Shown in pieces: positions 29,403 through 30,752 of a stretch of 64,000 nucleotides of DNA. Numbering within the stretch: the stretch's first letter is position 1; each line of letters begins with the position of its first letter. The notes beneath the pieces were generated by a model. The model worked only from the letters and a program-made list of their open reading frames with translations, was not told the DNA's origin and did not search any database. The translations under genes were made by a program, and so were the position numbers. This stretch comes from a virus: UHGV virus genome UHGV-0371537; one strand, written 5' to 3'.

Positions 29403-30752
29403 TCACCAGCCGTAGGAGATACCTGCGCCTACAGTGTAACCGCTTTGTGTATCTGCTGATACAGACAGTTTACCCACGGTGTTCTGGCTGATACGAGCGG
29501 AGGCACCCACGGCGATCGCACTCTGGTCATCACGGTAGCCTACGCCAGCGCCCACCGAGAATGATTGGAACTCAGTCACCTGCGGGATGTTGGCCATGGC
29601 AGCAACCCCAGCAATACCCGCATTGGATTTCTTCTCTACTTTGTCAATCTGTTTGTGTAGATTACTGAACCCAGTATTCACCTGGCGTTCCAAATCGCTG
29701 ATGCGCTTTTCATGATTGGCAATGTCGTGACTGTTCTGAGCAACAGATTTGTTTGTGTTGTTCAGGGAGTTACGAGTCTGCTCGATGTAGCTGTACGCAT
29801 TGTCAACGCCAGCAATCGCATAATCGGCCTTTGACTCAGCGCGGTTGGCGGTCACTTGGGCTTTGTCAGATGATACTTGGGCGTGTTCTGCCTTCTTCAC
29901 CGCCGTGTTGGCGGTCACTTGGGCTTTATTAGCCTTTGACTCAGCGCGGTTGGCTGTGTCTTGGGCTTTGTCAGCCTTGGCGACAGCAACACCCGCAGTG
30001 GAGAGAGCAACACCCGCAGTACCCTGAGCGGCAGCGATATTACCGTCCTGAGATCTGTCTTTTTCAGACTGTACCGATTTGTCATCGTCGTAGGTCGTTT
30101 GATCGACTTTGGTATCAATGCGACCACTGAGCGCCTGATCACCAGTCTGGCGGTCAGATGTTTCCTGAGCCAGCGCGTCGTCTTGACGTTTCTGATCAGT
30201 CGTGAAGTCGCTGTTGTCAACTTTGCCATCAATACGGTCACTCAGGGCTTTATCGCCATCTTTACGATCCTGAACTTCTTTTGACAACGCAGAGTCTTGA
30301 CGATCTTGGTCGGTTTTGAATTGATCTTTGTCGACTTTCCCAGAGATGGCAGTATCCTGGGCGGCGTCCACTCCGGTCTGCGCTGCTTTATCAGCAGCAT
30401 ATTCATCTTTGTCGACGCTGTTGCTCCCACTGCTATTACCGCCGCCCGTGTTTCCACCCCCGGAGTTGTTCAGGTGAGTGTTGACAGTATTTTGATCCCA
30501 GACATTAACAGAACCAGATTTAAACATGTTCAGGATGTCTTCCTTGGTGGAGTTATCCAGGCTAAAGCGCTGACCCAGCACCGCGTAAAAACGGTTGAAC
30601 TTGTTGGAAGAAACGCCTTCGTTGTAACCGTTTTGAAGGTCGGCCATCGCCGCGCTCCACTGGTCACCTGAAGATTTGAGATACAGAGCAGCATTGGCGT
30701 TGAACACCAAGACTGATAATGCTAAACCGACAATGGCAATGTTTTTACGCAT
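29403..30752 (-). CDS. YadA-like trimeric autotransporter adhesin (signal peptide, repetitive coiled-coil stalk, C-terminal beta-barrel anchor)
   Basis: 449 aa; N-terminal signal MRKNIAIVGLALSVLVFNANA; repetitive stalk (KVDKDQF...DRQDSAL..., KAQVTANRAESKA repeats); C-terminus NAGIAGVAAMANIPQV...FSVGAGVGYRDDQSAIAVGASARIS...GYTVGAGISYGW matches the YadA-anchor pattern. Confidence 0.7.
   Translation of the reverse strand: MRKNIAIVGLALSVLVFNANAALYLKSSGDQWSAAMADLQNGYNEGVSSNKFNRFYAVLGQRFSLDNSTKEDILNMFKSGSVNVWDQNTVNTHLNNSGGGNTGGGNSSGSNSVDKDEYAADKAAQTGVDAAQDTAISGKVDKDQFKTDQDRQDSALSKEVQDRKDGDKALSDRIDGKVDNSDFTTDQKRQDDALAQETSDRQTGDQALSGRIDTKVDQTTYDDDKSVQSEKDRSQDGNIAAAQGTAGVALSTAGVAVAKADKAQDTANRAESKANKAQVTANTAVKKAEHAQVSSDKAQVTANRAESKADYAIAGVDNAYSYIEQTRNSLNNTNKSVAQNSHDIANHEKRISDLERQVNTGFSNLHKQIDKVEKKSNAGIAGVAAMANIPQVTEFQSFSVGAGVGYRDDQSAIAVGASARISQNTVGKLSVSADTQSGYTVGAGISYGW
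29850..30390 (-). repeat. in-frame tandem repeats encoding the coiled-coil stalk of the YadA-like protein
   Basis: Periodic Lys/Asp/Gln-rich peptide repeats; cluster of overlapping spurious ORFs in the ORF track over this interval is typical of repetitive DNA. Confidence 0.45.

What the first reader, a model, noticed from the sequence alone, without database searches (positions are those of the whole stretch)
29403..30752. YadA-like trimeric autotransporter adhesin encoded inside a lytic-type phage tRNA island
The product has a Sec signal peptide, a long repetitive coiled-coil stalk, and a C-terminal about 70-aa segment (NAGIAGVAAMANIPQV ... GYTVGAGISYGW) matching the YadA membrane-anchor signature. 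A bacterial outer-membrane adhesin architecture in a T4-like genome is unexpected. If expressed in the infected cell it would be displayed on the host surface, so it could mediate superinfection exclusion, aggregation of infected cells, or receptor masking; alternatively it is a horizontally acquired moron. It sits between tRNA-Asn and tRNA-Arg, a typical hotspot for accessory insertions, and has its own downstream terminator.
Basis: partly seen in the sequence, partly recalled or inferred. Interest (0 to 1): 0.8.

Follow-up and report, generated by a model that had tools for sequence, protein, structure and literature searches.

The report
Phage-encoded trimeric autotransporter surface fibre
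A virulent Salmonella/E. coli-type phage (Agtrevirus, not T4-like) carries an intact, selectively maintained gene for a bacterial-style outer-membrane fibre; similar genes are already annotated in many lytic phages, but nobody has shown what they do for the phage.

Summary
ORF 29403-30752 (- strand, 449 aa) has a Sec-type signal peptide. It then has a small helical head, a G/N-rich linker and about 275 residues of helical stalk, the last 130 in perfect heptad register. It ends in a full-length YadA_anchor domain (Pfam E=1e-13; the AlphaFold model matches the Hia, AtaA and YadA membrane domains). It lies between tRNA-Asn and tRNA-Arg.

Two details are wrong or weak. The genome is an Agtrevirus-like Ackermannviridae phage (GC about 50%), not T4-like. 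The "terminator" is a conserved stable hairpin with only a short U-tract.

The find is not unexpected:
- Orthologues at 89-95% identity sit at the same locus in Salmonella phages SKML-39 (RefSeq "adhesin"), SW16-7 and SP-9-14.
- There is a PHROG family for it.
- Anchor homologues occur in 110 phage records, and a 2013 paper already listed yadA homologues in virulent phages.

What I add:
- The gene is under purifying selection (dN/dS about 0.2; anchor 0.05-0.09).
- Its codon usage is native to the phage.
- Stalk length varies among alleles by whole heptads.
- Its 75-aa head is a rare domain with no known fold, found only on phage-type anchor proteins.

It is most likely displayed on the infected cell's outer membrane. 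What it does there (exclusion/shielding or adhesion) is untested. I rate it a new member of a known kind, of moderate interest.

The parts
29403..30752 (-). Complete gene for a 449-aa trimeric-autotransporter-type protein (stop codon included)
   Evidence: ORF list; Pfam YadA_anchor; PHROG 17426 'adhesin' E=7e-151; dN/dS about 0.2 against three orthologues
30759..30764 (-). Shine-Dalgarno GAGGAA, 7 nt before the ATG
   Evidence: Sequence read
30690..30752 (-). Codons 1-21: Sec-type signal peptide MRKNIAIVGLALSVLVFNANA, predicted cleavage after ANA
   Evidence: Read by eye. Conserved in orthologues, and almost all of 120 homologues have a similar N-terminus. pLDDT below 50 in the model
30459..30689 (-). 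Codons 22-98: small head domain (beta-alpha-alpha-beta-alpha-alpha) with motif LKSSGDQW
30420..30458 (-). Codons 99-111: Gly/Asn/Ser-rich linker, predicted disordered
   Evidence: pLDDT below 50 for 99-110. Replaced by collagen-like GXY repeats in some relatives
29985..30419 (-). Codons 112-256: distal stalk, highly charged helices with two 38-39-aa repeats (138-176, 177-214)
   Evidence: Self-comparison. AF2 helices 115-213 with pLDDT 83-96. No heptad periodicity
29592..29984 (-). Codons 257-387: heptad coiled coil (alanine zipper, then the N/T-containing heptads next to the anchor)
   Evidence: Period 3.5 is the strongest, reached by 0 of 500 shuffles. Single AF2 helix 257-387. Alleles differ here by indels of 7, 14, 21 and 28 aa. 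21-nt DNA tandem repeat at 29978-30029
29406..29591 (-). Codons 388-449: membrane anchor with four beta-strands, ending in ...GISYGW
   Evidence: Pfam PF03895 full length. Strands 398-407, 410-422, 425-434 and 439-447. Foldseek to Hia, AtaA and YadA transmembrane domains. Hydrophobic period about 2. dN/dS 0.05-0.09 over codons 331-449
29357..29403 (-). Conserved nested hairpin directly after the stop codon, followed by UUUAUU: possible weak terminator
   Evidence: RNA fold -19.3 kcal/mol, z=-4.5. Conserved in four phages. Not called by the terminator scan
29199..29273 (-). tRNA-Asn(gtt), downstream neighbour
   Evidence: ARAGORN and Rfam
30899..30974 (-). tRNA-Arg(tct), upstream neighbour
   Evidence: ARAGORN and Rfam. 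Among the Agtrevirus and Kuttervirus loci examined it is present only where the fibre gene is present. A divergent tRNA-Arg/tRNA-Met pair also exists in Klebsiella phages that lack the gene

Best explanation
This is an accessory, non-structural gene of a virulent Agtrevirus-like phage. It encodes a type Vc (trimeric autotransporter) surface fibre.

Inferred pathway: the gene is transcribed with the - strand tRNA cluster, and the preprotein is exported by Sec and cleaved after Ala21. The C-terminal four strands of three chains are then assembled by the host BAM machinery into a 12-stranded outer-membrane barrel. The passenger threads out through that barrel and folds into a trimeric stalk of roughly 30-40 nm, tipped by three copies of a small head domain.

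The fibre would therefore coat the surface of the infected cell during the latent period, and remain on the debris after lysis. The pay-off I think most likely is a change in what can reach or stick to that surface. One version is steric shielding that reduces further adsorption, both superinfection by competitors and loss of the phage's own progeny to infected cells and debris. The other is fibre-mediated adhesion or clumping.

Shown here: the domain architecture, the homology and fold of the anchor, the gene's intactness and purifying selection, and its accessory position.
Inferred only: export, trimerisation, surface display, timing of expression and the benefit to the phage.
For: Architecture:
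- Signal peptide.
- Full-length YadA_anchor above Pfam's cut-off, with PDB sequence and fold matches to the Hia, AtaA and YadA anchors.
- Heptad coiled coil leading into the barrel.
- C-terminal Trp.

The gene is functional rather than decaying:
- Four alleles are intact.
- dN/dS is 0.19-0.39 overall and 0.05-0.09 in the anchor third, apart from one pair with only two substitutions.
- Stalk indels are whole multiples of 7 residues.
- GC, GC3 and codon usage lie within the native range, unlike the neighbouring endonuclease and the tailspike-region genes.

It is not part of the virion module:
- It lies on the opposite strand from the baseplate and tailspike genes, inside the tRNA cluster.
- At this locus the gene itself is matched only in SW16-7, SP-9-14 and SKML-39 among the 279 phage records (almost all Ackermannviridae) that match the surrounding region.
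- In N4-like phage S6 the homologue follows a membrane-protein gene and a lipoprotein gene in the non-structural arm. Moreno Switt 2013 made the same point for FSL SP-058/076.

Signal peptides are retained in almost all of 120 homologues and in nearly all of 59 IMG/VR loci. Independent virulent lineages keep such genes.

Precedent, from established knowledge and not tested here: virulent phage T5 makes the outer-membrane lipoprotein Llp, which blocks its receptor FhuA on infected cells and debris.
Against: - There is no expression or localisation data for any phage homologue. No promoter was identified between tRNA-Arg and the ATG, and there is no T4-type late-promoter enrichment, so timing is unknown.
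- Ackermannviridae recognise O-antigen or capsule through enzymatic tailspikes. A sparse protein fibre may not shield those receptors.
- Autoaggregation by trimeric autotransporters is homotypic (PMC7568254 abstract), which gives no obvious benefit to a lytic phage.
- The head domain has no recognisable ligand-binding fold.
- Most relatives do well without the gene.
Confidence: 0.65

Rival explanations
1. Virion fibre or receptor-binding protein. The product is part of the tail apparatus and recognises the host, as the PHROG category 'tail' and the SW16-7 annotation 'recognition of host receptor' imply.
For: - PHROG 17426 and 26246 are filed under 'tail', and SW16-7 is annotated 'recognition of host receptor'.
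- The stalk weakly resembles tail-fibre proteins: phrog_13173 at E=1e-5 and the Psychrobacter phage Psymv2 tail fibre at E=3e-4.
- Cyanophage 'YadA domain-containing structural proteins' were detected in virions by LC-MS (PMC9146016, PMC6224464).
- The gene lies only about 4 kb from the baseplate genes.
Against: - A cleavable Sec signal peptide and an outer-membrane beta-barrel anchor are incompatible with cytoplasmic virion assembly. Both are conserved across homologues.
- The gene is on the other strand, inside the tRNA cluster.
- At this locus the gene is matched only in SW16-7, SP-9-14 and SKML-39 among the 279 matching phage records, almost all Ackermannviridae.
- No cyanophage matches this anchor at tblastn E<1e-3, so the cyanophage proteins are not shown to be the same domain.
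- The 'tail' labels are automatic and follow from the word 'adhesin'.
Confidence: 0.07
2. Passenger gene without a role in the lytic cycle. It is a host adhesin gene picked up in a recombination hotspot (next to a homing endonuclease) and merely carried along, possibly acting as a virulence factor if transferred.
For: - Patchy distribution within Agtrevirus.
- Location in a variable slot beside a NUMOD3/endonuclease-I-like gene.
- The closest anchors outside phages are chromosomal Enterobacterales YadA-like proteins in ordinary, non-prophage neighbourhoods.
- Moreno Switt 2013 classed such genes as putative virulence genes.
Against: - A virulent phage cannot benefit from lysogenic conversion, yet the gene is intact in all alleles with dN/dS about 0.2 and a strongly constrained anchor.
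- Its composition is fully adapted to the phage.
- The head domain is found only on this phage-type set of anchor proteins.
- Analogous genes persist in many independent virulent lineages.
Confidence: 0.1
3. Protection of the infected cell from third parties. Like YadA, UspA2, DsrA or the prophage Eib proteins, the coiled-coil fibre would bind complement regulators or immunoglobulin, or otherwise block killing or grazing. That would keep the infected cell alive until burst in the gut.
For: - The architecture is mostly coiled coil, as in serum-resistance autotransporters (established knowledge of those families, not tested here).
- The hosts are enteric bacteria.
Against: - Homologues with the same head occur in phages of plant-associated Erwinia and Xanthomonas, where complement is irrelevant.
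- No sequence similarity to Eib, UspA or DsrA passengers was detected.
Confidence: 0.08

Closest known systems
SKML-39 gp201 (YP_007236296, UniProt K4IGJ8) and its orthologues in Salmonella phages SW16-7 and SP-9-14; PHROG 17426
   Same: Direct orthologues at 89-95% amino-acid identity. Same locus (tRNA-Met, tRNA-Arg | gene | tRNA-Asn) and same domain order.
   Different: The window allele has one extra heptad (ALSTAGV) and fewer alanine-zipper heptads than SKML-39. Its anchor-proximal third is much more diverged at synonymous sites (dS 0.26-0.28 against 0.03-0.05 in the 5' third), which indicates recombination.
Bacterial trimeric autotransporter adhesins (type Vc secretion): YadA, Hia, AtaA
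   Same: Signal peptide, coiled-coil stalk running into a four-strand-per-chain anchor, and Pfam PF03895. The anchor model superposes on 2GR7, 3EMO, 9VNJ and 2LME.
   Different: No YadA-like head, neck or stalk Pfam repeats were detected. Instead there is a 75-aa helical head of unknown fold and a G/N-rich linker. The gene is encoded by a virulent phage.
YadA-homologue 'agglutinating adhesins' of other virulent phages (phiEco32 gp119, FSL SP-058/076, Erwinia S6 gp046, Hena1, GAP32 gp424, fHe-Yen9-04 g441)
   Same: Signal peptide plus stalk plus YadA anchor, in non-structural regions. S6, Hena1, fHe-Yen9-04 and XbC2 share the LKSSGDQW head. Hena1 and the jumbo phages also place the gene directly after a tRNA.
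   Different: Identity is only 30-50%. Lengths range from 140 to 800 aa, and some have other heads or collagen-like linkers. None has a tested function.
Eib immunoglobulin-binding proteins of E. coli (prophage-borne trimeric autotransporters)
   Same: Phage-carried trimeric autotransporters (from established literature, not tested here).
   Different: They are encoded by temperate lambdoid prophages and act as lysogenic-conversion factors with YadA-like head and neck domains. No similarity beyond the anchor class was seen here.
Envelope-targeted exclusion proteins of phages (T5 Llp, lambdoid Cor, T4 Imm/Sp, P22 SieA)
   Same: Possible functional analogy: a phage protein exported to the envelope of the infected cell that blocks further infection (established knowledge).
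   Different: These are unrelated proteins, and no homology was found. The exclusion function of the present protein is a hypothesis only.

Membership tests
Trimeric autotransporter adhesins (type Vc secretion) | C-terminal YadA-like membrane anchor domain (Pfam PF03895) at the extreme C-terminus | tested here: met
   E=1.1e-13, 51.4 bits against a gathering cut-off of 22.7; residues 390-449 cover model positions 1-60 of 60. phmmer hits to the Hia, AtaA and YadA anchors.
Trimeric autotransporter adhesins (type Vc secretion) | Anchor fold: pore-traversing helix followed by four amphipathic beta-strands per chain | tested here: met
   AF2 gives helix 257-387 followed by strands 398-447. Foldseek to 3EMO, 2GR7, 2GR8, 9VNJ and 2LME: E 5e-8 to 5e-4, TM-score 0.69-0.88. 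Hydrophobic period about 2 in residues 398-447.
Trimeric autotransporter adhesins (type Vc secretion) | N-terminal Sec signal peptide | tested here: met
   n-, h- and c-regions with ANA|A, read from the sequence and conserved among homologues. No dedicated predictor was available.
Trimeric autotransporter adhesins (type Vc secretion) | Coiled-coil stalk continuous with the anchor | tested here: met
   Uninterrupted heptad register at 257-387, reached by 0 of 500 shuffles. Allelic indels are multiples of 7 aa. The distal stalk 112-213 is helical but not heptad-periodic.
Trimeric autotransporter adhesins (type Vc secretion) | Obligate homotrimer forming one 12-stranded barrel, with the passenger displayed on the cell surface | not testable with these tools
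   Only monomer prediction was available. Needs SDS-resistant trimer, protease-shaving or immunofluorescence experiments.
Trimeric autotransporter adhesins (type Vc secretion) | Canonical passenger modules (YadA-like head, neck, Hep_Hag/HIM, YadA_stalk repeats) | tested here: not met
   No such Pfam family at E up to 1. These modules are common but not obligatory for the family. The head is a different domain with no known fold.
Phage virion tail fibre / receptor-binding protein | Cytoplasmic assembly (no secretion signal), a gene in the structural module, and conservation with the virion architecture | tested here: not met
   A signal peptide and a membrane anchor are present. The gene is in the tRNA cluster on the opposite strand. 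At this locus it is matched only in SW16-7, SP-9-14 and SKML-39 among the 279 matching phage records.
Known anti-phage defence / exclusion protein families (PADLOC) | Match to a described defence-system profile | tested here: not met
   No PADLOC family at E up to 0.01.

The most novel reading that the evidence does not exclude
Virulent phages of several unrelated lineages use a dedicated, phage-specific subfamily of trimeric autotransporters, marked by the LKSSGDQW head, to re-surface the cell they have infected. That would be a new class of superinfection-exclusion or cloaking device, or an infected-cell adhesin, built on type Vc secretion. The head would recognise a ligand conserved across Enterobacterales and beyond.
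Probability: 0.3. Interest if true: 0.7.

Novelty: new member of a known kind. Interest (0 to 1): 0.35.

Why it matters
Outer-membrane proteins made by strictly lytic phages are rare and informative, as with T5 Llp. Genes for trimeric autotransporters recur in many virulent phages of Gammaproteobacteria and are under purifying selection, yet no function has been shown for any of them. If they are displayed on infected cells they could affect phage-phage competition, phage-cocktail design and the aggregation or biofilm behaviour of infected populations. They could also affect safety assessments, because such genes are routinely flagged as "virulence factors" in therapeutic or biocontrol phages. 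The small head domain is also a new building block for the autotransporter field.

Tried and rejected
- **Composition test for recent transfer.** GC 0.512, GC3 0.54 and codon log-likelihood 0.068 all lie within the native range of -0.11 to 0.24. No foreign signature, so "recent moron" is not supported.
- **tRNA-Arg(UCU) plus fibre gene as a mobile cassette.**
  - Among the Agtrevirus and Kuttervirus loci examined, the tRNA co-occurs with the gene, and Hena1 also has tRNA-Arg(tct) directly upstream.
  - But the DNA of the two arrangements is unrelated.
  - The gene uses AGA for only 1 of 17 Arg codons.
  - Klebsiella Ackermannviridae without the gene have a tRNA-Arg/tRNA-Met pair.
  - Rejected as a cassette.
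- **General link between phage autotransporter genes and tRNA clusters.** Only 8 of 59 IMG/VR loci have a tRNA within 1.5 kb, and they come from three lineages. This is recurrent but not general, and is best explained by tRNA islands being accessory regions.
- **Promoter hunt.**
  - No sigma-70-like site on the - strand upstream of the gene.
  - T4 late motif TATAAATA is not enriched.
  - The enriched 9-mer TTTATTGAA is mostly the reverse complement of gene-junction sequence.
  - Expression timing is unresolved.
- **Defence-system profiles.** No PADLOC hit.
- **Literature.** Ten searches found genome-annotation mentions only, and no functional or localisation study.
- **The ~101-kb Salmonella contigs carrying a homologue next to a porin gene.** No megablast match in the phage or plasmid collections, so their nature is unresolved.
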